The notes beneath the pieces are model-generated. The model was not told where the DNA came from and searched no databases. It saw only the letters and a list, made by a program, of their open reading frames with translations. Of a stretch of 20,000 bases of DNA, positions 1 to 16,165 are shown piece by piece. Where the stretch lies: the IMG/VR virus record IMGVR_UViG_3300010356_001334; one strand, given 5' to 3'. Origin of the DNA: an uncultured virus (IMG/VR IMGVR_UViG_3300010356_001334). Lineage: Duplodnaviria > Heunggongvirae > Uroviricota > Caudoviricetes. The position numbers were made by a program, and so were the translations under genes. Numbering within the stretch: position 1 is the first letter of the stretch; every line of letters begins with the position of its first letter.

Positions 1-52
1 CTGAACCTGTTTCTGTGGTTTTTGTTGCACGCTCTTTAAATAGTTTGAGCAT
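1..52 (-). CDS. 5' end of a hypothetical gene running off the left edge (MLKLFKERATKTTETGS...)
   Basis: CAT at 50-52 with purine-rich AAAGGAAA/AGGGG upstream on the minus strand. The frame is open to the window edge but only 17 codons are visible. Confidence 0.4.
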   Translation of the reverse strand, partial: MLKLFKERATKTTETGS

Positions 53-130
53 TTTCCTTTAACCCCTTTTTCTTTAAAAAGGAGCAGTATCGATCTACGG
101 ATCACGCACGACCTTAAAAAGGAGTTCCTC

Positions 131-454
131 ATGGCACGTTGTTCTATTCGTTTTATTCTAAGTTGTTTTCTGGCTCTTACTACTTTTCATGCATATAGTG
201 CAAGTAAAGTAGAAGCATTAGAGAAATACATTTCGAGTGCTTGCAAGACGTCTTGTGTCGATCCAAGTCTTTTGTTGCTATCTGTCAACAAGGCATCAGA
301 AGAACTAGATGTAAACCCTGTGACGCTTTTGGCAATTATAGAAGTCGAGTCGTCCTTCAAGCATAGAGCGCTAAATAAAACCAATGGAAGGAGTGTGGGT
401 TTATCTCAGATCCAAGTAAGATGGCATCGAGATAAATTCACAACAACAAACTAC
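131..454 (+). pseudogene. Lytic transglycosylase (SLT-domain) protein, N-terminal part, interrupted by the IS605-family element
   Basis: RBS AAAAGGAG precedes the ATG; hydrophobic signal-like N-terminus; SLT motif I (LAIIEVESSF, catalytic Glu) and motif II (GLSQI). The last 13 codons of the called ORF 131-496 are read-through into the IS left end. Confidence 0.8.
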
Positions 455-1912
455 CTCCGAGAGCGTAAAGCTCTGTCCTTCAGGGCGGAGATGTAAGCGA
501 AGTTGTATTGTATAAAACCTATATAACCTCTCTAATGAAAGGAGTAGTGTATGACAGAAACATCTAAGCTCCTGAAGAAGGGGTTTAAGTTTCCTATCTA
601 TCCGACTGCTGAGCAACAGGAACTCATCGAGCGCACTTTCGGCTGCTGTCGTTATGTCTATAACCGCGCTTTGGCCGAGTCTAAAGAAGACTATAAGACT
701 TATGCTGAGTTGTTAGAAAAACGACTCATGGATAAACAAGCACGACCCGATGTTTCAAGCTATGGGTTGGTTAATAAGTTGCCACGCTTTAAACGCGATC
801 CAGATAGCACTTGGCTAAGTGACGTTTCAGCTGTCGCGCTCCAGCAGAGCCTGCTTCATCTTGGTGCCGCCTATGCACGCTTTTTCAGAACCAAGCAAGG
901 TTTCCCCAGGTTTAAGTGCAAGCAAGGTCGACAAAGCTTCTCACTGACAAAAGCTGCCTTTAATCTTCAAGAAAGTGGTCTTTGTATTGCTAAATGCATT
1001 ACACCCATTAAGGTTGTGTATAGCCGACCTCTCCCGTCAACACCGTCGAGTTTGACAATTAGTCGTACACCTTCAGGTAAGTACTATGTCTCTTTCATTT
1101 GTGAGTACCAACCAACACCAACCTCTGGCACACAGGTTACTGGGATCGATGTCGGCCTTAGTCATCTCTTAGTGCTTTCCAACGGCATCAAAGTCGATAA
1201 CCCACGTCACTATGTAAAAGCACAACAGCGTCTCAAGCGTGCCCAGCAAGCCCTCTCTCGTAAACAAAAAGGATCCCGTAATCGCCATAAACAACGTCAC
1301 AAGGTAGCCAAACTTCACGAACATGTCGCTAACTGCCGACGTGATCATCACCATCAGCTCTCTCGAAAGCTCGTCAACGAAAACCAAGTGATCGGTATCG
1401 AGGGACTTCAGGTGAAAAACATGATCAAGAATCGTCGACTCTCAAAGCACATCACAGATGCAGGTTGGAGAAGCTTCCGAAGCATGCTGGAGTATAAAAC
1501 AGTCGAAAGCCAGCACACCACACTTGTCGTGATGGACACCTTCTTCCCGAGCAGTCATCTCTGTGCAGCCACAGGCCAAAAGCTTGATCGTAAGCTTCTA
1601 CTTAGCGAGCGTAGCTGGGATTGTCCACACTGCGGCCAGCTTCATGATCGTGATGTGAATGCAGCTCAAGTTATCGCAACTGAAGCACTTTTTGCAGTGA
1701 GTCAATACCCTATCGATGTTGTGCGTGGAAAGATCCTGCTGGCTAATGCACGATCTGCTTAGGGAGAAGGATTTGTCAATAATCAACACCGCGATGACAC
1801 GCGGTGTCAGCCCATGGAGCGCTCTTGTGCAGTCAGACATCGCGATGAAGTGGGAAGGGGACTCCGTGAGGACCCTAGGAATCCCTGTCCTTTAGGGCAG
1901 GGAGGATGTCAA
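455..1912 (+). mobile_element. Non-autonomous IS200/IS605-family element (tnpB only, IS1341-like organisation)
   Basis: Left end: AAAG (467-470) plus hairpin CTCTGTCC-TTCA-GGGCGGAG (471-490), preceded by CTAC (451-454, one mismatch from the IS608 TTAC target). Right end: GAAT (1879-1882) plus hairpin CCCTGTCC-TTTA-GGGCAGGG (1883-1902) and terminal TCAA (1909-1912). No tnpA and no target duplication. Removing 455-1912 rejoins the flanking gene in frame. Confidence 0.88.
551..1762 (+). CDS. tnpB: TnpB RNA-guided endonuclease (TnpB-1), 403 aa
   Basis: N-terminal GFKFPIYPT..Q...FGCCRYVYN; RuvC-I GIDVG, RuvC-II IGIEGL, RuvC-III DRDVNAA; zinc-finger region CAAT...CPHC; RBS GAAAGGAG. Confidence 0.96.
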   Translation: MTETSKLLKKGFKFPIYPTAEQQELIERTFGCCRYVYNRALAESKEDYKTYAELLEKRLMDKQARPDVSSYGLVNKLPRFKRDPDSTWLSDVSAVALQQSLLHLGAAYARFFRTKQGFPRFKCKQGRQSFSLTKAAFNLQESGLCIAKCITPIKVVYSRPLPSTPSSLTISRTPSGKYYVSFICEYQPTPTSGTQVTGIDVGLSHLLVLSNGIKVDNPRHYVKAQQRLKRAQQALSRKQKGSRNRHKQRHKVAKLHEHVANCRRDHHHQLSRKLVNENQVIGIEGLQVKNMIKNRRLSKHITDAGWRSFRSMLEYKTVESQHTTLVVMDTFFPSSHLCAATGQKLDRKLLLSERSWDCPHCGQLHDRDVNAAQVIATEALFAVSQYPIDVVRGKILLANARSA

Positions 1913-1932
1913 GTTCCTAAAGTCTTAAAAGC
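1786..1932 (+). ncRNA. Predicted omegaRNA (reRNA) of TnpB-1: scaffold 1786-1912 plus ~20-nt guide GTTCCTAAAGTCTTAAAAGC from the flanking DNA
   Basis: Stem ACACCGCG/CGCGGTGT (1786-1807) with loop ATGACA complementary to TGTCA at 1907-1911 (pseudoknot as in TnpB reRNAs). CCCATGGAG...GATGAAGTGGGAA core. Scaffold ends at the IS right end. Confidence 0.78.
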
Positions 1933-1966
1933 GCACAGTCGTATCGCGAACTTGAAACTTCATTAA
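1913..1966 (+). pseudogene. C-terminal fragment of the interrupted transglycosylase (VPKVLKAHSRIANLKLH*)
   Basis: In frame with codon TAC at 452-454 once the IS is removed. Gives Y-V-P-K-V, matching the C-terminal SLT Y..KV motif, and is followed by a terminator. Confidence 0.72.
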
Positions 1967-1976
1967 ATGTATTTTA

Positions 1977-2004
1977 AGGTCTAGAGGCTAAAGCCTCTAG
2001 ACCT
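1977..2004 (+). terminator. Hairpin terminator between the SLT/IS unit and tnpB-2
   Basis: Perfect 12-bp stem AGGTCTAGAGGC-TAAA-GCCTCTAGACCT followed by a T-rich tract. Confidence 0.75.
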
Positions 2005-2020
2005 ATGTCTGTTTAAAAAG

Positions 2021-2046
2021 TTTTTTAGTCATATATATCTTACATG
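2021..2046 (+). promoter_or_regulatory. Putative phage early-type promoter for tnpB-2
   Basis: TTTTTTAGTCATATATATCTTACATG lies between a terminator and the RBS (CCGGAGAA). The TATAT-ATC-N4-ATG layout resembles the TATATTAC early-promoter motif of phiKZ; the resemblance was judged by eye. Confidence 0.45.
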
Positions 2047-2078
2047 CCATTCTTACAGAAACTAAAACCGGAGAAACT

Positions 2079-3281
2079 ATGACTCAAAATCAAAAGCCTC
2101 TGGTCAAAGGCTTTAAGTGCCGTATTTATCCAACAAAAGAACAAAAAGACTATCTTCAAAAAGTCTTTGGTTCTGCTCGGTTTATCTATAACCATCTTTT
2201 AGCTGAATTAAAAGATGAATATGAAAACTATAAAAAAGACCAAAGCATTCAAAGAACACCAATAAATAAAATATCATTAGCCTATAAACTGCCTTCTTTA
2301 AAACAAAAAGAAGAATATCAATGGTTAAACGATGCCCCTGCACAAGTTCTTCAACACGCCAGTGGTCAACTTGCAGAAGCCTTTTTAAGATTCTTTAAAT
2401 CAAAGATTGGATATCCTAGATTTAAATCTAAACACGGTCGACAATCTGTAACGTTTAGTAATCAAATCTATTCAATCGATGGCAATAGACTCAAGCTACT
2501 AAAATGCAAATCTTTGTTTAAAGTTAAGCTTCATCGAGCATTACCGTCATCTGGTTTAAAATCATGCACAGTCAGTAAAACTCCAAGTGGAAAGTATTAT
2601 GCTTCGTTTTTATGTGAGTATATTCCAGAGAAAACATCAGGAACTGGTTTTCTTGGCATTGACGCAGGCATTACTGACTTAGCAACACTTTCAAACGGAC
2701 TTATTCTTCTAAACCCAAAGCACTATGTTAAACAACAATACAGACTAGCGCAACTTTCAAGACGCCTAACTCGTAAACAAAAAGGATCAAAAAATCGAAA
2801 TAAAGCTCGACTTAAAGTTGCTAGACTTCATGATCACATAGCTAATCAGCGCTGTGATTACATGCATAAGTTCACGACAAGCGTCATACGCGAAAACCAA
2901 GCTGTCGCCATCGAGAACTTGCAAATTAGAAACATGATCAAAAACAGACGACTCTCTAAACATATTGCTGACGCAGCATGGGGTGAGATGAGACAGCAAT
3001 TGGCTTATAAAGCTATTGCTAGTCAAAACTGTCTTCTTGTTATTGCTGATCCGTATTATCCGAGTACTCAACTTTGCCATAGATGTAACACAAAACCAAG
3101 TCAGAAAATTAAACTCGGCGTGACAAAGTGGGTATGTGAATACTGCGGAGAAAAACATCAGCGTGATCATAATGCTTCTTTGAATCTTGAAGTCCTGGCA
3201 AGATCTTACTATTATCAGCAAAAGAGAAATGGAGAAATTGCTAGTATTATTTTAGCCAAACCTTATTCTCCGTTAATTTAG
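2079..3281 (+). CDS. tnpB: TnpB RNA-guided endonuclease (TnpB-2), 400 aa, without IS ends
   Basis: GFKCRIYPT..Q...FGSARFIYN; RuvC-I GIDAG, RuvC-II VAIENL, RuvC-III QRDHNAS; complete CHRC...CEYC zinc finger; RBS GGAGA. Confidence 0.96.
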   Translation: MTQNQKPLVKGFKCRIYPTKEQKDYLQKVFGSARFIYNHLLAELKDEYENYKKDQSIQRTPINKISLAYKLPSLKQKEEYQWLNDAPAQVLQHASGQLAEAFLRFFKSKIGYPRFKSKHGRQSVTFSNQIYSIDGNRLKLLKCKSLFKVKLHRALPSSGLKSCTVSKTPSGKYYASFLCEYIPEKTSGTGFLGIDAGITDLATLSNGLILLNPKHYVKQQYRLAQLSRRLTRKQKGSKNRNKARLKVARLHDHIANQRCDYMHKFTTSVIRENQAVAIENLQIRNMIKNRRLSKHIADAAWGEMRQQLAYKAIASQNCLLVIADPYYPSTQLCHRCNTKPSQKIKLGVTKWVCEYCGEKHQRDHNASLNLEVLARSYYYQQKRNGEIASIILAKPYSPLI

Positions 3282-3294
3282 TTAAGATCTTTAG

Positions 3295-3414
3295 TCAAAC
3301 TACCGTAGGGTATACGGGAAGTCAAGCCTGTGGAGAAGATCGTGAAGTAGGCGACTCGATGAAGCAGGAAGATCTGAAGTCTGGACCATACCACATCTTA
3401 ACTGAATGATACGC
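3295..3414 (+). ncRNA. Predicted omegaRNA copy A of TnpB-2: scaffold 3295-3394, guide ~ATCTTAACTGAATGATACGC (3395-3414)
   Basis: Directly after the tnpB-2 stop. Stem CCGTA/TACGG with loop GGGTA complementary to TACC at 3389-3392; GCCTGTGGAG...CTCGATGAAGCAGGAA core typical of tnpB 3' regions. The guide boundary is inferred from the pseudoknot position. Confidence 0.75.
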
Positions 3415-3452
3415 TAGTATCAATTTTAACAAAGCCCTGAAAGGAGAAAATC

Positions 3453-3656
3453 ATGGCTGCTATTCTTATTGTCATCGGATACTTCGCAGTTATCCTGAGT
3501 ATTACGATGCTGTCGATGAAACTGGTCAGGACAAAAATCATTCGAACTTTGTTCATTGGACTGGGTTTGCTCCCAAGTATTCAACTCATTATTCTTGGGG
3601 TCTTACTGGTTGAACTATATGGACAACGCGCTCTTAAAGGAGTTCATCATGAATAA
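3453..3656 (+). CDS. Small membrane protein, 67 aa
   Basis: RBS GAAAGGAG; two hydrophobic stretches separated by basic residues. Confidence 0.75.
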   Translation: MAAILIVIGYFAVILSITMLSMKLVRTKIIRTLFIGLGLLPSIQLIILGVLLVELYGQRALKGVHHE

Positions 3657-3765
3657 GGTTAAAGCTCTTTGCAAGAATGGCAATGGTCTTGTTCGGTCGG
3701 TCCTTCTGATCACCGCTGGTGTCAGTGTCTGGATGTGGCAAATTGCCACCATCCTTGACAAATAA
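3649..3765 (+). CDS. Small hydrophobic protein, 38 aa (MNKVKALCKNGNGLVRSVLLITAGVSVWMWQIATILDK)
   Basis: RBS AAAGGAG before ATG 3649, overlapping the upstream stop; followed by a terminator. This start is preferred over 3556. Confidence 0.6.
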   Translation: MNKVKALCKNGNGLVRSVLLITAGVSVWMWQIATILDK

Positions 3766-3782
3766 AAAATCATCAAATGTCA

Positions 3783-3818
3783 GGAGAGGTTTTAAACCTC
3801 TCCAGCTTTTTCTTTTTG
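3783..3818 (+). terminator. Rho-independent terminator
   Basis: GGAGAGGTTT/AAACCTCTCC stem followed by T-tracts. Confidence 0.7.
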
Positions 3819-3830
3819 AGGATTTAATAA

Positions 3831-4007
3831 ATGCCTTCAAAATCAGAGAAACAAAAGAAGTTCATGGCGGCAATTTGCCACGATGAAGAGTTTGCTAAAA
3901 AGAACCACATTGATCAAGAAGTCGCGTGTGAGTTCTTTGAGGCAGACAAACAAGAAGAAAAGAAGAAACAAGAAAGTGTTGTTGAGAAGTGGTCTAAGAA
4001 GTCTTAA
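3831..4007 (+). CDS. Small phage protein, 58 aa (MPSKSEKQKKFMAAICHDEEFAKKNHIDQEVACEFFEADKQEEKKKQESVVEKWSKKS)
   Basis: Not in the ORF track; translated by hand. RBS GAGGA upstream. The MPSKS.KQ..FMAA..H...FAKK pattern resembles a recurrent small phage protein of unknown function. Confidence 0.7.
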   Translation: MPSKSEKQKKFMAAICHDEEFAKKNHIDQEVACEFFEADKQEEKKKQESVVEKWSKKS

Positions 4008-4048
4008 AACGCGTTCTGTGCCATTTTAATTGATCTAAGGGGTCTGTC

Positions 4049-4459
4049 ATGCTCAAAGAGCTTAATAACGCCATTGGTGGCGCCTATGTGGCTTCTCATT
4101 GTGTTTCTCGTCGTGTTGATCTAGCTGGGATTCGATATGTCTCAGCATCTGATCAAGTTTGGCCTTTTAATCCCAAACTCTATGTAGAACCGATTGAAGT
4201 CGACAGTATCATCTACACAGGAGTCTACACTCTCCTTAAAGAAGATGTCGTTGATGAAGATCAATATAAACTTTCAAACTCTGAAGGTCAATATCATCTT
4301 GGAACAAAACTGGTGATGTTGAAAAACGATCTTCATCTTCAGATTTTTGATGGTGAAGATGCTTGGCACGAATTCATTCCGAAAGGAAGTCAGGTTGCTA
4401 AAGTGCTTCGAAATGGTCGAGTATATTGGGCAGTGATCTATGCTCAAATCATCCATTAA
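4049..4459 (+). CDS. Hypothetical protein, 136 aa
   Basis: ORF with AAGGGG RBS-like sequence; same strand as its neighbours; no recognisable motif. Confidence 0.65.
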   Translation: MLKELNNAIGGAYVASHCVSRRVDLAGIRYVSASDQVWPFNPKLYVEPIEVDSIIYTGVYTLLKEDVVDEDQYKLSNSEGQYHLGTKLVMLKNDLHLQIFDGEDAWHEFIPKGSQVAKVLRNGRVYWAVIYAQIIH

Positions 4460-4480
4460 GAGACCCTGCTCTTAGAAAAA

Positions 4481-4505
4481 AGATAACAGTGTACATCTCT
4501 AGTGA
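4481..4505 (+). promoter_or_regulatory. Putative promoter for the stand-alone omegaRNA
   Basis: AGATAACAGTGTACATCTCTAGTGA has the same ATC-N4-(A/G)TG layout as 2037-2046. It follows a small hairpin (TAAGAG/CTCTTA, 4457-4474) and lies ~25 nt before the scaffold. Confidence 0.35.
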
Positions 4506-4530
4506 GGAAAGCAAGTTATACTAGCAATTC

Positions 4531-4650
4531 TCAAACTACCGTAGGGTATACGGGAAGTCAAGCCTGTGGAGAAAATCGTGAAGTAGGCGACTCGATGAAG
4601 CAGGAAGATCTGAAGTTTAGATCATGCCACATCTCTATTGAACGATGCTA
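4531..4650 (+). ncRNA. Stand-alone omegaRNA copy B: scaffold 4531-4630, guide ~ATCTCTATTGAACGATGCTA (4631-4650)
   Basis: 95/100 identical to 3295-3394 with no tnpB attached. Pseudoknot partner is TGCC (G-U compatible with loop GGTA); hairpin GATCTGA-AGT-TTAGATC at 4607-4623. Confidence 0.75.
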
Positions 4651-4776
4651 CCACACATCGCTTCAGTTCTTTCTTAAAGAGTGGCTTGAGCTCAACACTT
4701 TTTAATGGAAGATTTTCTTAACGCAAGTAGTTTCCTGTGGCAATCTGCCATAATACCATAAATGAAGGAGTAATCT

Positions 4777-5229
4777 ATGTCCCGCGCAAAACGTGATGAG
4801 AATCTGGTCAACGCCATCGCTTCGTCGCTGTCCAAGGTAACCGATGGTGTGATCTCGTCGGACGGTGATGTCTTTAACAGCAATCTGCCGGAAGGTCTGA
4901 CTCCGGAAACGGTTGAAGCAGTTTCCAACTATACCACGGCTTTCGTTGCCAGTGGTCTGGAAGCGGTTGGTAAGGCCGCAGTGTCTGCCATGGAAAAAGA
5001 CAAGAAGCTGAATAATGTTTCGGCTGAAATTCCCATGGGCGCTTTCGGTAGCGTCGGTTACGGTGTAACCCGTAGTCGTGAAGCTGTGGTTCCGGGTACG
5101 GACAAGACCACAACGGTCTATGGCGGCACCAAGGCAAATGTGGCTTTTGTGGCTGGCAAGAACGCTGGTCAACTGGCTGCTGCTAAGCGCTCTATCAAAG
5201 AGATGGCTGAAGAAGCACTGAAGAAGTAA
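4777..5229 (+). CDS. Conserved jumbo-phage hypothetical protein, 150 aa
   Basis: Strong RBS GAAGGAG, biased codon usage like the sheath and tube genes, own terminator. The LPEGLTPETV pattern is recalled from phiKZ-like phage proteins; function not assigned. Confidence 0.85.
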   Translation: MSRAKRDENLVNAIASSLSKVTDGVISSDGDVFNSNLPEGLTPETVEAVSNYTTAFVASGLEAVGKAAVSAMEKDKKLNNVSAEIPMGAFGSVGYGVTRSREAVVPGTDKTTTVYGGTKANVAFVAGKNAGQLAAAKRSIKEMAEEALKK

Positions 5230-5243
5230 TCTGTTCTGATGAC

Positions 5244-5292
5244 ATAGAGGGAGAGGGCCTAGGCCCTCTCCCTCTGTATCAGTATTTTTTTT
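5244..5292. terminator. Terminator between convergent genes
   Basis: AGAGGGAGAGGGCC-TA-GGCCCTCTCCCTCT inverted repeat followed by a long T run. Confidence 0.85.
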
Positions 5293-6015
5293 TTACCATC
5301 GAGCATAAATAGATTTATTTTCAACTGAAAGGTTTGCAGTTACCAATAGTTTTTCTTTTAAGAAATCTGACTTTGAAATCTCTTTAATTGTAGTTGTTTT
5401 ATATGTATTCCATGTTGAGTTACGATTATAATCAAACGTAATCTCATAATAGCCTGGATTTAAAACATTAACAGAATCAAAGTGAAATCTTTTCTTAATT
5501 TCAACTTTGATTGTTATAACGTATTTTGGTTCTTGATTAATTTGAGGTAATGCTTTTAACTCAGATACATAGAGCTTACCAATTTGCTCTGGGATATATG
5601 TTCTGGTGTTTTCATTGTATGTAACTAGCCAGTGTTCATTACTAGCACGCACATCATAGACTAATCGAGCATTTGGTTTTAATGCATATTCAAAAGAAAT
5701 TGCATTAATATAAAGTCCACCTTTCCATCCTTCATTCTTTCCTTGATATCCAGCATCTAAGACATCATAAGGAAGAACAGCATAACCAATGATTGCTCCA
5801 TATAGGCATGTTGAAGCTGTAATCCGTGGTGTTGTTCGGTCTTCCATATTTGCTTGCCTAAATCCAATACGCGGAATATAGACATTAGGACGATCTTTCG
5901 TAATATGGATAAGGAAGGGATCGGGAAGCTGGTTGGCTGTTACGATGGTGATATTTTTCTGAACTTTATCAGGAAGGCGTTTGATAAAAAATTCAAGTTC
6001 TTGAAGAGAAGACAT
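5293..6015 (-). CDS. Hypothetical phage protein, 240 aa
   Basis: Long AT-rich ORF with motif-like segments H-I-T, YIPRIG, EDRTTPRITAS and EHWLV. Confidence 0.8.
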   Translation of the reverse strand: MSSLQELEFFIKRLPDKVQKNITIVTANQLPDPFLIHITKDRPNVYIPRIGFRQANMEDRTTPRITASTCLYGAIIGYAVLPYDVLDAGYQGKNEGWKGGLYINAISFEYALKPNARLVYDVRASNEHWLVTYNENTRTYIPEQIGKLYVSELKALPQINQEPKYVITIKVEIKKRFHFDSVNVLNPGYYEITFDYNRNSTWNTYKTTTIKEISKSDFLKEKLLVTANLSVENKSIYARW

Positions 6016-6069: not shown

Positions 6070-6105
6070 GACACAGGGAGAAGGCGAAAGCCTTCTCCCT
6101 GTGTC
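6070..6105. terminator. Hairpin terminator downstream of the tail tube gene
   Basis: 16-bp perfect stem GACACAGGGAGAAGGC-GAAA-GCCTTCTCCCTGTGTC. Confidence 0.8.
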
Positions 6106-14439: not shown

Positions 14440-14471
14440 CACAGGGAGAAGGCGAAAGCCTTCTCCCTGTG
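14440..14471 (+). terminator. Hairpin terminator identical to 6072-6103
   Basis: CACAGGGAGAAGGC-GAAA-GCCTTCTCCCTGTG just after the stop at 14427. Confidence 0.8.
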
Positions 14472-15485: not shown

Positions 15486-15530
15486 TAGAGAGCGAAGGGA
15501 TATCCCTTCGCTCTCTAGTATTTTTTTTTT
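15486..15530. terminator. Terminator between convergent genes
   Basis: TAGAGAGCGAAGGGA-TA-TCCCTTCGCTCTCTA followed by ten T residues. Confidence 0.85.
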
Positions 15531-15855
15531 AATCTTCAAGAAGCTTTTCAAGATTTTGATGATGTAACCACTGACCAATGGTACTTCGTTTATGAATTGC
15601 TTGATTTTGAATCATATTAATGTCTAGATCAGACGCTTTACACAAAAGATGAATTCCATTTAATACATCTCCGAGTTCTTTTTCAAGATGTTGTCGATTT
15701 GTAATTTGTTCAGGGTTATGAGGGTTTTGACTCTCATAGCCGTGTTGAAGAATTTTTCCGATAACTTGAACAGATTCTCCAAGCTCTCCCATAAGTACTG
15801 AAAGTCTCTCTAGTTCAGCAGGAGAGAGTTGATTAAAAGGTTGTTCATATAACAT
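15529..15855 (-). CDS. MazG-like all-alpha NTP pyrophosphohydrolase, ~108 aa
   Basis: LMGELGESVQVIGKILQHG...NRQHLEKELGDVL matches the E..E / E..D helical motifs. Start placed at ATG 15855 behind an AAGGAA RBS instead of 15897. Confidence 0.72.
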   Translation of the reverse strand: MLYEQPFNQLSPAELERLSVLMGELGESVQVIGKILQHGYESQNPHNPEQITNRQHLEKELGDVLNGIHLLCKASDLDINMIQNQAIHKRSTIGQWLHHQNLEKLLED

Positions 15856-16165
15856 CTTTTTGATTCCTTTTTCTCTGAAAGTGTTTAAGTTCTTCAAGTC
15901 TTAATCGAGCATGCATATCTACCGAACTCATATCGACAACACCGACTACTCCAGAAACCTTTAAAAGCGTTTTTAAGAACCCTAGTTTAATTTCTAAGTA
16001 CTGAATATTAGTAATATCAATATCCGGTCTATAGGGCGCCTTAAGACCTTCTACGAGAATCTTCGAGATAGTCTTTTCAACCTCACTACATGTTTTAGCG
16101 ATATCCGTAAAAACTACTTTCGCCTGATCCGATATAAGGTCGTCTGACATTGCGAGCTCGCTCAT
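15845..16165 (-). CDS. Hypothetical protein, ~100 aa (start uncertain)
   Basis: Fills the gap between terminase and the MazG-like gene and overlaps both ends. Confidence 0.5.
   Translation of the reverse strand: MSELAMSDDLISDQAKVVFTDIAKTCSEVEKTISKILVEGLKAPYRPDIDITNIQYLEIKLGFLKTLLKVSGVVGVVDMSSVDMHARLRLEELKHFQRKRNQKDVI

What the first reader, a model, noticed from the sequence alone, without database searches (positions are those of the whole stretch)
4481..4670. Stand-alone omegaRNA gene whose substitutions preserve structure
Seen: 5 differences in 100 nt relative to copy A. One lies in the variable middle region. Three improve the terminal hairpin (GATCTGA-AGT-TTAGATC pairs fully in copy B, only partly in copy A). 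One changes the pseudoknot strand TACC to TGCC, which still pairs with loop GGTA through G-U. The copy sits in its own intergenic slot behind a small hairpin and a promoter-like motif, with no tnpB remnant in the same orientation. Inference: a selected trans-acting guide RNA gene, not a decayed IS fragment.
Basis: partly seen in the sequence, partly recalled or inferred. Interest (0 to 1): 0.8.

Follow-up and report, generated by a model that had tools for sequence, protein, structure and literature searches.

The report
Gene-less TnpB guide-RNA mini-element in phage
A 136-base insertion in a large sludge phage carries only the guide-RNA scaffold of a neighbouring transposon nuclease (TnpB) and probably borrows that nuclease to copy itself into phage genomes that lack it, which is a known kind of element.

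Summary
Window 4531-4630 is a second copy of the omegaRNA scaffold that follows tnpB-2 (3295-3394).

A covariance model built only from 44 omegaRNAs of distant tnpB loci finds both copies full-length: B 32.1 bits, A 30.1 bits. The family structure, pseudoknot included, is well supported by covariation. The five A/B differences alone prove little. All are transitions, and polarity from a third copy suggests most changes fell on copy A.

New here: B is a discrete 136-base insertion/deletion. One public DNA contig of a near-identical phage joins 4492 to 4629 and also lacks IS-2. A phage about 10% diverged keeps B at 161 of 164 bases, between flanks only 50-67% identical. IS-2, a second IS-2 copy and B all sit at the same spot of a repeated promoter-like phage motif, which explains why their guides look alike.

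Best reading: a gene-less, PATE-like stand-alone omegaRNA that uses TnpB-2 in trans to home into empty sites. Expression and activity are not shown. Stand-alone omegaRNAs are already described, so this is a new member of a known kind.

The parts
4487..4501 (+). Left flank of the mini-element: CAGTGTACATCTCTA. It is a diverged copy of the core of a repeated promoter-like phage motif. ACATCTCTA (4493-4501) recurs at the element's right end, and ATCT (4495-4498) is the candidate TAM.
   Evidence: Identical to G002 at 15 of 15 bases. The repeat is shown. Motif copies are listed.
4502..4530 (+). 29-nt left part of element B (GTGAGG...CAATTC). Origin unknown; it is not like the IS-2 left end.
   Evidence: Identical to G002 at 29 of 29 bases. 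No similarity to 2037-2078. It lies inside the segment missing from the X4 contig.
4531..4630 (+). omegaRNA scaffold, copy B. Helices: P1 4539-4543/4549-4553; P2 4563-4566/4601-4604; P3 4569-4571/4591-4593 and 4576-4578/4588-4590; P4 4607-4613/4617-4623; pseudoknot 4545-4548 with 4625-4628. It ends ...GCCAC.
   Evidence: CM R1, built without A or B, matches 4530-4629 at 32.1 bits, E 1e-7, model positions 1-124. It is 95/100 identical to copy A. The helices were placed by hand on the family structure.
4631..4650 (+). ATCT (4631-4634), which is either the transposon-end motif or the first guide bases, followed by the 16-nt predicted guide CTATTGAACGATGCTA (4635-4650).
   Evidence: The family rule places the right end 2 nt after the pseudoknot strand. 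Identical to G002 at 19 of 20 bases, falling to 15 of 30 immediately after. The same sequence follows ACATCT in the natural empty site.
4637..4667 (+). Hairpin that includes most of the predicted guide. It looks like the hairpin of the phage promoter-like module.
   Evidence: Folding 4631-4670 gives -9.4 kcal/mol, z -3.8, with 2 of 200 shuffles as good. Analogous hairpins follow the other motif copies.
3295..3394 (+). omegaRNA scaffold, copy A, at the right end of IS-2. Its terminal hairpin (3371-3387) is degenerate.
   Evidence: CM R1 matches 3294-3393 at 30.1 bits, E 4e-7. The hairpin alone folds at 0 kcal/mol.
3395..3414 (+). ATCT plus the predicted guide of copy A (TAACTGAATGATACGC), which is the phage sequence at the IS-2 insertion site.
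   Evidence: The G002 empty site reads CATATATATCTTAACTGAACGATACGC.
2079..3281 (+). tnpB-2, 400 aa, the presumed partner nuclease.
   Evidence: Pfam hits OrfB_IS605 5e-30, HTH_OrfB_IS605 1e-17 and Cas12f1-like_TNB 2e-15. D195, E279 and D363 are invariant in 35 aligned homologues.
2039..3398 (+). IS-2 (tnpB-2 plus omegaRNA A). About 1358 nt are absent from G002 and from the X4 contig. The boundaries are ambiguous by 3-6 nt (ATCTTA occurs at both junctions).
   Evidence: for G002. One search shows the joint 2039->3398.
455..1911 (+). IS-1: left-end hairpin (455-490), tnpB-1 (551-1762) and a canonical omegaRNA (1780-1911). It is a second, 47%-identical TnpB lineage, used here as a comparison.
   Evidence: Pfam. 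CM R1 scores 68.4 bits. G002 carries a 98%-identical copy at another place.

Best explanation
Copy B is a 136-nt, gene-less derivative of the IS-2 (IS200/IS605-type tnpB) lineage. It consists of a 29-nt left part of unknown origin plus a complete omegaRNA scaffold, and it sits in a diverged copy of a repeated promoter-like motif of a phiKZ-like jumbo phage.

Shown here:
- The scaffold is complete and fits the covarying family structure, including the pseudoknot.
- It is a discrete indel that a near-identical natural phage lacks.
- A compatible TnpB-2 is encoded 1.25 kb upstream.
- The conserved block (4487-4650) ends about 16 nt into the flank.

Inferred: the element is transcribed, either from the motif on its left or by read-through from ORF 4049-4459. 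TnpB-2 binds the scaffold in trans. The guide is the flanking 16-20 nt. The RNP cuts genomes of co-infecting relatives that carry the empty site (ACATCT + CTATTGAACGATGCTA). Recombinational repair from the B-bearing genome then copies B in. This would be the homing logic proposed for TnpB, carried out by a guide-only passenger.
For: (1) Family model. CM R1 was built from 44 non-redundant omegaRNAs lying 3' of tnpB homologues of at most 46% identity, with neither A nor B included. It matches B at 32.1 bits (E 1e-7), its G002 orthologue at 32.9 bits and A at 30.1 bits, all over model positions 1-124.

(2) Family structure. 89.4% of 1202 cells are paired, against 66.0% in shuffles (0 of 500 reach it) and 40-49% when partners are slid. 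25 of 28 pairs show compensatory change. The pseudoknot has 4 of 4 pairs in 38 of 44 sequences; shuffles average 23.1 with a maximum of 32 in 1000. B keeps it (GGUA x UGCC, one G.U).

(3) Empty site. Contig record 25 of DNA run X4 (2139 nt, roughly 98% like the window where it aligns) joins 4492->4629, skipping 136 nt with 9 nt shared. The same contig joins 2039->3398, so IS-2 is absent too.

(4) Conservation. Window against G002: 4487-4650 is 161/164 identical, while 4460-4486 is 18/27 and 4651-4680 is 15/30.

(5) Partner. TnpB-2 has all three Pfam TnpB domains. D195, E279 and D363 are invariant across 35 homologues. Their identity as the RuvC triad is recalled, not tested.

(6) Terminal hairpin. 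B's hairpin is intact, like that of a third IS-2 copy seen in run X4 (GATCTG..CAGATC, pseudoknot strand TGCC).

(7) RNA library. One contig in RNA run X19 covers 4546-4772. This is weak, because contigs cannot prove transcription.

(8) Precedent. Stand-alone omegaRNAs that work in trans are described (passages read in PMC10691335, and PMC10055086).
Against: - No direct evidence of a transcript, of 5'/3' ends, or of binding to or cutting by TnpB-2.
- B is known at one locus only: 1 hit in the viral-contig scan, and 1 metagenome contig that is 99.9% the same phage. Mobility therefore rests on one presence/absence polymorphism, which deletion between the 9-13-nt repeats could also produce.
- The left 29 nt are not a recognisable IS-2 left end and carry no hairpin like the right end, so TnpA-type transposition is doubtful. 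No Y1 transposase is found among the 19 window ORFs scanned or in G001/G002.
- G002 has B but no TnpB-2 in the 73 kb held, which is 27% of a genome.
- The bases before ATCT differ between site B (GTAC) and site A (ATAT). If the TAM lies there, TnpB-2 may not recognise site B.
- The high conservation could simply reflect recent spread or co-conversion.
- No sigma-70-like promoter is found upstream.
Confidence: 0.6

Rival explanations
1. Inert relic. B is what remains of an older full-length IS-2-like insertion after an internal deletion removed tnpB. It is neither used nor selected. It looks intact only because it is young or was recently exchanged between phages by ordinary recombination. The X4 variant lost it by slippage between the flanking 9-13-nt repeats.
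For: - B is known at a single locus.
- It is bounded by a direct repeat (ACATCTCTA, or 13 nt in G002), a classic deletion substrate.
- The A/B differences are all transitions and are statistically uninformative.
- No sigma-70-type promoter-like site is found upstream.
- No TnpA is found.
- Even copy A, which is linked to the nuclease, has lost pairs in its terminal hairpin, so this lineage tolerates decay.
Against: - The left junction is not the IS-2 left end, so a simple internal deletion of the present IS-2 does not produce B.
- The conserved block is sharply delimited at 161/164 against 50-67% just outside. It ends about 16 nt into the flank, where a guide would end.
- B scores at least as well as A on an independent model and keeps every helix.
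Confidence: 0.25
2. Domesticated guide-RNA gene. The phage keeps B for its own benefit. It might cut the corresponding promoter allele of rival phages during co-infection (RNA-guided marker exclusion), or it might bind promoter-module copies as a regulator.
For: - B sits at a defined spot in a repeated promoter-like module, and its guide resembles other copies of that module: 12 of 16 bases match two G002 sites.
- Conservation spans the motif core, leader, scaffold and guide.
- Empty-site alleles coexist in similar habitats.
Against: - B is polymorphic between near-identical phages, unlike a fixed gene.
- TnpB-2 keeps the invariant acidic residues, so it is not a nuclease-dead regulator.
- The 12/16 matches have their mismatches at the TAM-proximal end.
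- Exact-match scans for the guide in IMG/VR gave 8 hits other than G002, and none extends beyond the 17-mer, so all look like chance.
Confidence: 0.1

Closest known systems
Stand-alone (effector-less) omegaRNAs of OMEGA systems (Altae-Tran et al. 2021, as summarised in PMC10691335; passages read)
   Same: A mobilised omegaRNA with no nuclease or transposase of its own, in the same genome as an effector-bearing locus with a near-identical scaffold. Such RNAs are reported to work in trans.
   Different: This one is in a jumbo phage, 1.25 kb from its presumed effector. It sits in a repeated promoter-like motif, and a natural empty-site allele has been seen. Trans activity was not tested here.
PATEs (palindrome-associated transposable elements) of IS200/IS605 that encode omegaRNAs (Meers et al., PMC10055086; passages read)
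   Same: A minimal, protein-less IS derivative that keeps the right end with its omegaRNA and would need TnpB in trans.
   Different: PATEs keep recognisable left and right ends with similar hairpins for TnpA. B's 29-nt left part is unlike the IS-2 left end and unlike its own right-end hairpin, and no TnpA was found.
Canonical IS200/IS605 TnpB-omegaRNA, e.g. ISDra2 (recalled) and IS-1 in this window
   Same: A scaffold with a loop-to-3'-tail pseudoknot immediately before the guide. The guide is the DNA flanking the right end.
   Different: The IS-2-type scaffold is minimised to 100 nt, with a short middle hairpin and a 7-bp terminal hairpin, and it lies wholly after the tnpB stop codon. B has no tnpB at all.
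Free-standing homing endonuclease genes of T-even phages (intronless homing and marker exclusion; review PMC13565253, passages read)
   Same: Predicted spread between co-infecting phage genomes by cutting the allele that lacks the element, followed by repair from the allele that has it.
   Different: Here the specificity would reside in an RNA, and the mobile unit (B) would not even encode the nuclease.

Membership tests
TnpB omegaRNA scaffold (IS200/IS605 OMEGA), IS-2 lineage | Sequence and structure match a model of omegaRNAs found 3' of tnpB genes | tested here: met
   CM R1, built from 44 sequences excluding A and B, matches 4530-4629 at 32.1 bits, E 1e-7, over model positions 1-124. A sequence-only HMM gives E 5e-7.
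TnpB omegaRNA scaffold (IS200/IS605 OMEGA), IS-2 lineage | Pseudoknot between the loop of the 5' hairpin and the 4 nt at positions -6 to -3 from the right end | tested here: met
   The family rule holds in 38 of 44 sequences; shuffles reach at most 32. B pairs GGUA (4545-4548) with UGCC (4625-4628), 4 pairs including one G.U.
TnpB omegaRNA scaffold (IS200/IS605 OMEGA), IS-2 lineage | Lies at the 3' end of a tnpB gene, inside the transposon right end | tested here: not met
   No tnpB is adjacent. Upstream is a 136-aa ORF with no Pfam hit, then 71 nt of intergenic DNA. This is the feature that makes B 'stand-alone'.
TnpB omegaRNA scaffold (IS200/IS605 OMEGA), IS-2 lineage | Transcribed and bound by TnpB | not testable with these tools
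   The only evidence is a contig in one RNA-library run covering 4546-4772. Contigs cannot show transcription.
Rfam families | Match at the gathering score | tested here: not met
   0 matches across the 20-kb window.
Stand-alone omegaRNA / PATE | No protein-coding gene inside the element | tested here: met
   The element is 136 nt. The overlapping 67-aa ORF is not conserved in G002.
Stand-alone omegaRNA / PATE | Compatible effector elsewhere in the same genome | tested here: met
   tnpB-2 (2079-3281) has a scaffold 95/100 identical.
Stand-alone omegaRNA / PATE | Evidently mobilised (polymorphic presence or several copies) | tested here: inconclusive
   Precise absence is seen in one X4 contig, but only one locus is known. 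Deletion between the repeats is not excluded.
Stand-alone omegaRNA / PATE | Both transposon ends present, with similar TnpA-type hairpins (PATE in the strict sense) | tested here: not met
   The left 29 nt are unlike the IS-2 left end and carry no hairpin like 4607-4623. No Y1 transposase was found.
Exapted or domesticated TnpB guide system (nuclease-dead regulators) | Inactivated RuvC site and fixed, immobile locus | tested here: not met
   D195, E279 and D363 are invariant, and the locus is polymorphic.

The most novel reading that the evidence does not exclude
B is a guide-only 'passenger' that parasitises TnpB-2. Transcribed from the phage motif it sits in, it directs the nuclease to B-less genomes of co-infecting jumbo phages and is copied in by repair. 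The whole IS-2 lineage is specialised for one position in a repeated phage promoter-like module. Each insertion is therefore expressed automatically, and the phage accumulates a small set of guides aimed at promoter alleles of its rivals. That would amount to RNA-guided homing and marker exclusion between phages.
Probability: 0.3. Interest if true: 0.65.

Novelty: new member of a known kind. Interest (0 to 1): 0.35.

Why it matters
Stand-alone omegaRNAs are known, but their biological role is stated to be unknown (PMC10691335, passage read).

This locus is compact and testable. The nuclease, its own guide and a gene-less second guide lie within 2.6 kb of a phage genome. Natural genomes that lack either or both insertions occur in the same type of habitat. 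This would allow a direct test of whether a guide-only element gains biased inheritance by borrowing a TnpB.

It also shows an IS lineage that repeatedly lands at the same spot of a repeated phage regulatory motif.

Tried and rejected
- DNA searches of the phage collection with 1-5300 (near mode) and 4460-4776 (distant mode) found no match.
- The window's own assembly is not held. The nearest record, G001, stops at window 6102 and does not cover the locus.
- Relatives of TnpB-2 at 59-95% identity exist among proteins. Their DNA could not be fetched. The loci found in viral and genome contigs are at most 46% identical, so no close omegaRNA homologues were available for an A/B-level covariation test.
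- The metagenome scan returned only a contig 99.9% identical to the window.
- Single-sequence folding of A and B is no better than shuffles (z +0.55 to -1.56).
- RNAalifold missed the long-range helix P2, so I added it by hand and tested it.
- In one search one of my 12 seed sequences (L060) was mis-trimmed to 14 nt. The HMM still recovered the family.
- A guide-B target outside the phage: 8 IMG/VR hits to a 17-mer besides G002, none extending further, judged chance. Guide A gave 1 unrelated hit.
- B as an off-target of guide A: 10 of 16 bases match, but the mismatches are TAM-proximal. Paralogy of the promoter-like motif explains the similarity better.
- The TAM of distant relatives is TTCAT/TCAT. 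A TCAT lies 6 nt upstream of the IS-2 junction, but the register does not fit.
- The exact end of the right end (after CCAC or after ATCT) could not be settled.
- My first hand-made consensus for the motif matched nothing, because of a 1-nt register error. I repeated the search with a real copy.
- RNA-run depth is 0 over 4444-4537 in X19 and X20, and their contigs start at 4546 and 4666 next to adapter sequence. This is not usable as evidence for RNA ends.

Full report
**Context.**
The window comes from a phiKZ-like jumbo phage. Pfam finds a phiKZ gp29-type sheath, the gp28 vertex protein and a tail tube protein. The sheath protein is 45% identical to that of Burkholderia phage FLC9 and about 40% to Ralstonia phages RP12 and RP31.

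Two tnpB genes lie in tandem: tnpB-1 (551-1762) and tnpB-2 (2079-3281). Both carry the three TnpB Pfam domains. None of the 19 ORFs scanned is a Y1 transposase. Rfam gives no match in the window.

**The observation.**
A direct repeat joins 3295-3410 (copy A, starting 14 nt after the tnpB-2 stop) to 4531-4646 (copy B) at 92% identity. The alignment shows homology beginning abruptly at TCAAACTACCG.

- 4574, in the middle region
- 4617, 4619 and 4622, in the 3' strand of the terminal hairpin
- 4626, in the strand TACC/TGCC that faces loop GGTA

Taken alone, B's terminal hairpin folds into 7 pairs at -4.4 kcal/mol, and 0 of 200 shuffles fold as well. A's does not fold. No tnpB remnant precedes B. 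The 67-aa ORF over B is not kept in the related phage.

**Is it an omegaRNA, and is the structure real?**
Whole-copy folds of single sequences are not better than shuffles, so I turned to relatives.

TnpB-2 has 2391 homologues at E <= 1e-20. DNA could be fetched only for relatives of at most 46% identity. I built an HMM from 12 downstream regions; one of these I had mis-trimmed. It found a homologous element right after the gene in 93 loci over its full length. It also found both A (E 7e-7) and B (E 5e-7) in the window.

A k-mer filter left 44 non-redundant sequences, which I aligned. On a structure of four helices (P1 to P4, six helix segments as counted):
- 89.4% of cells pair, against 66.0% in shuffles (0 of 500 reach it) and 40-49% when partners are slid.
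- 25 of 28 pairs show changes on both sides.

The loop of the 5' hairpin pairs with the four bases at positions -6 to -3 from the right end in 38 of 44 sequences. Shuffles average 23.1 with a maximum of 32 in 1000. Covarying pairs include GACA/TGTC, GACT/AGTC, GAAC/GTTC, GATC/GATC and GAGC/GCTC.

A covariance model built from these 44 sequences, with neither A nor B included, gives these scores:
- IS-1 omegaRNA: 68.4 bits
- B orthologue in G002: 32.9 bits
- B: 32.1 bits (E 1e-7)
- A: 30.1 bits

All match over model positions 1-124. No further copy appears in the window, the 73-kb record G002 or L001. A and B are therefore minimised but complete members of this omegaRNA family. By the family rule their right end falls after ...CCAC, at 3394 and 4630.

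**What the five differences do and do not show.**
All five are transitions, and by the wobble rules about half of transitions in helices leave a wobble pair. Run X4 holds a third IS-2 copy, in another context and about 96% identical. It has the terminal hairpin GATCTG..CAGATC and the strand TGCC.

Using it to infer polarity:
- Copy A acquired three changes: one to a wobble pair, one breaking a pair, and one turning G.U into A-U.
- B acquired one change that adds an A-U pair, plus the change in the bulge.

So B has largely kept the ancestral fold, while the nuclease-linked copy has drifted. It is not statistical proof of selection on B.

**B is a discrete 136-nt insertion/deletion.**
The related phage fragment G002 is about 90% identical in this region. 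It lacks IS-2: the window's 2042 joins 3395, reading CATATATATCTTAACTGAACGATACGC. It carries IS-1 at another place. It has B in the syntenic slot.

A 2139-nt contig in DNA run X4, from a much closer relative, joins 2039->3398 and also 4492->4629. The second joint skips 136 nt, and 9 nt (ACATCTCTA) fit either side. Natural genomes therefore exist that lack both IS-2 and B exactly.

Identity between the window and G002, by segment:

| Segment | Identical |
|---|---|
| 4460-4486 | 18/27 |
| 4487-4650 (15 nt left flank, 29-nt left part, 100-nt scaffold, ATCT + 16 nt) | 161/164 |
| 4651-4680 | 15/30 |

The two scaffold differences lie in a bulge (4574) and a loop (4582). The conserved block thus runs from just before the element to about where a 16-nt guide would end.

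**Why the two guides look alike.**
G002 holds four copies of one module: TTTCAGTCATATATATCT(T/A)A(A)CTTGAC. In three of them CGATGCTA and a hairpin follow, and in all four AAGGAGAAA..ATG lies about 45 nt further on. One of the four is the empty IS-2 site.

IS-2, the X4 copy of IS-2 (flanks GGTAATATATATCT | ACTTTGAGCGCTG) and B (flanks CAGTGTACATCT | CTATTGAACGATGCTA) all sit at the same position of such a motif, next to ATCT. The similarity of the sequences after A and B is therefore paralogy of the target sites.

Whether ATCT is the target-adjacent motif mirrored at the right end, or the first four bases of the guide, cannot be settled from sequence.

**Mechanism.**
Passages read in PMC10055086 and PMC10691335 report two things. 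TnpB-omegaRNA cuts sites that lack the element and so drives its restoration by recombination. Gene-less omegaRNA elements exist and can work with a compatible effector in trans.

The simplest reading here is that B is such an element. It would borrow TnpB-2, whose D195, E279 and D363 are invariant among 35 homologues, and would be aimed at its own empty site. An inert relic and a domesticated guide remain possible.

Points against an active element:
- B is known at a single locus.
- Its left part is not an IS-2 left end.
- No TnpA is seen.
- There is no sigma-70-type promoter upstream. From recalled knowledge, phiKZ-like phages use their own polymerases.
- The only hint of expression is one contig of an RNA library covering 4546-4772.
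- G002's held 27% lacks TnpB-2.

**Novelty.**
Stand-alone omegaRNAs and omegaRNA-bearing PATEs are in print. Notes from this scan report several gene-less omegaRNA copies in large phages of other genomes (unchecked leads). This is a well-documented new member of a known kind.

It has three useful particulars. A natural empty-site allele exists. It sits in a repeated phage motif. The solo copy is better preserved than the copy beside the nuclease.

My literature searches for TnpB with 'jumbo phage', and with 'homing' plus 'phage genomes', listed no paper describing this arrangement. I saw only the listings for most of those papers. Supplementary files were not consulted.

Noticed in passing
window 131-496, 455-1911, 1913-1966: IS-1 (left-end hairpin, tnpB-1, canonical omegaRNA) interrupts an SLT-domain lytic transglycosylase gene. 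G002 has the gene uninterrupted, with 129 nt that the window lacks. G002 carries a 98%-identical IS-1 copy about 65 kb away.
   Followed up: partly
G002 (L174-L177) at 66209, 33673, 19003 and 3534, minus strand; window 2020-2042 plus 3395-3455: A repeated promoter-like module: TTTCAGTCATATATATCT(T/A)A(A)CTTGAC in all four copies, with CGATGCTA and a hairpin following in three, and AAGGAGAAA..ATG about 45 nt further on. There are four copies in 73 kb. IS-2 splits one of them in the window.
   Followed up: partly
G002 37488-37533 (minus strand) against window 4463-4508: A paralogue, 80% identical, of the sequence just left of B (GAAAAAAGAT..ACATATCTCTAGTGACGA), with no omegaRNA behind it. ACATCTCTAGTGA-like words also precede tnpB-1 (window 526-538).
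   Followed up: no
window 4518-4529 against 3236-3247: A 12-nt exact inverted match (ATACTAGCAATT) between B's left part and the 3' end of tnpB-2. It was the best hit of a short-word BLAST (E 0.015). Meaning unknown; possibly chance.
   Followed up: no
window 6072-6103, 14440-14471, 5245-5276: Two identical 32-nt palindromes (CACAGGGAGAAGGCGAAAGCCTTCTCCCTGTG) and a 75% relative lie between genes. They also occur in G002. They are probably terminator hairpins.
   Followed up: no
window 3419, 4546, 4666 (runs X19, X20): Contigs of RNA libraries begin at these places directly after adapter sequence. Depth is 0 over 4444-4537 in both runs. This cannot be read as RNA ends from contigs.
   Followed up: partly
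window 15529-15897 (minus strand): A small ORF with a MazG nucleotide pyrophosphohydrolase domain (E 3e-5).
   Followed up: no
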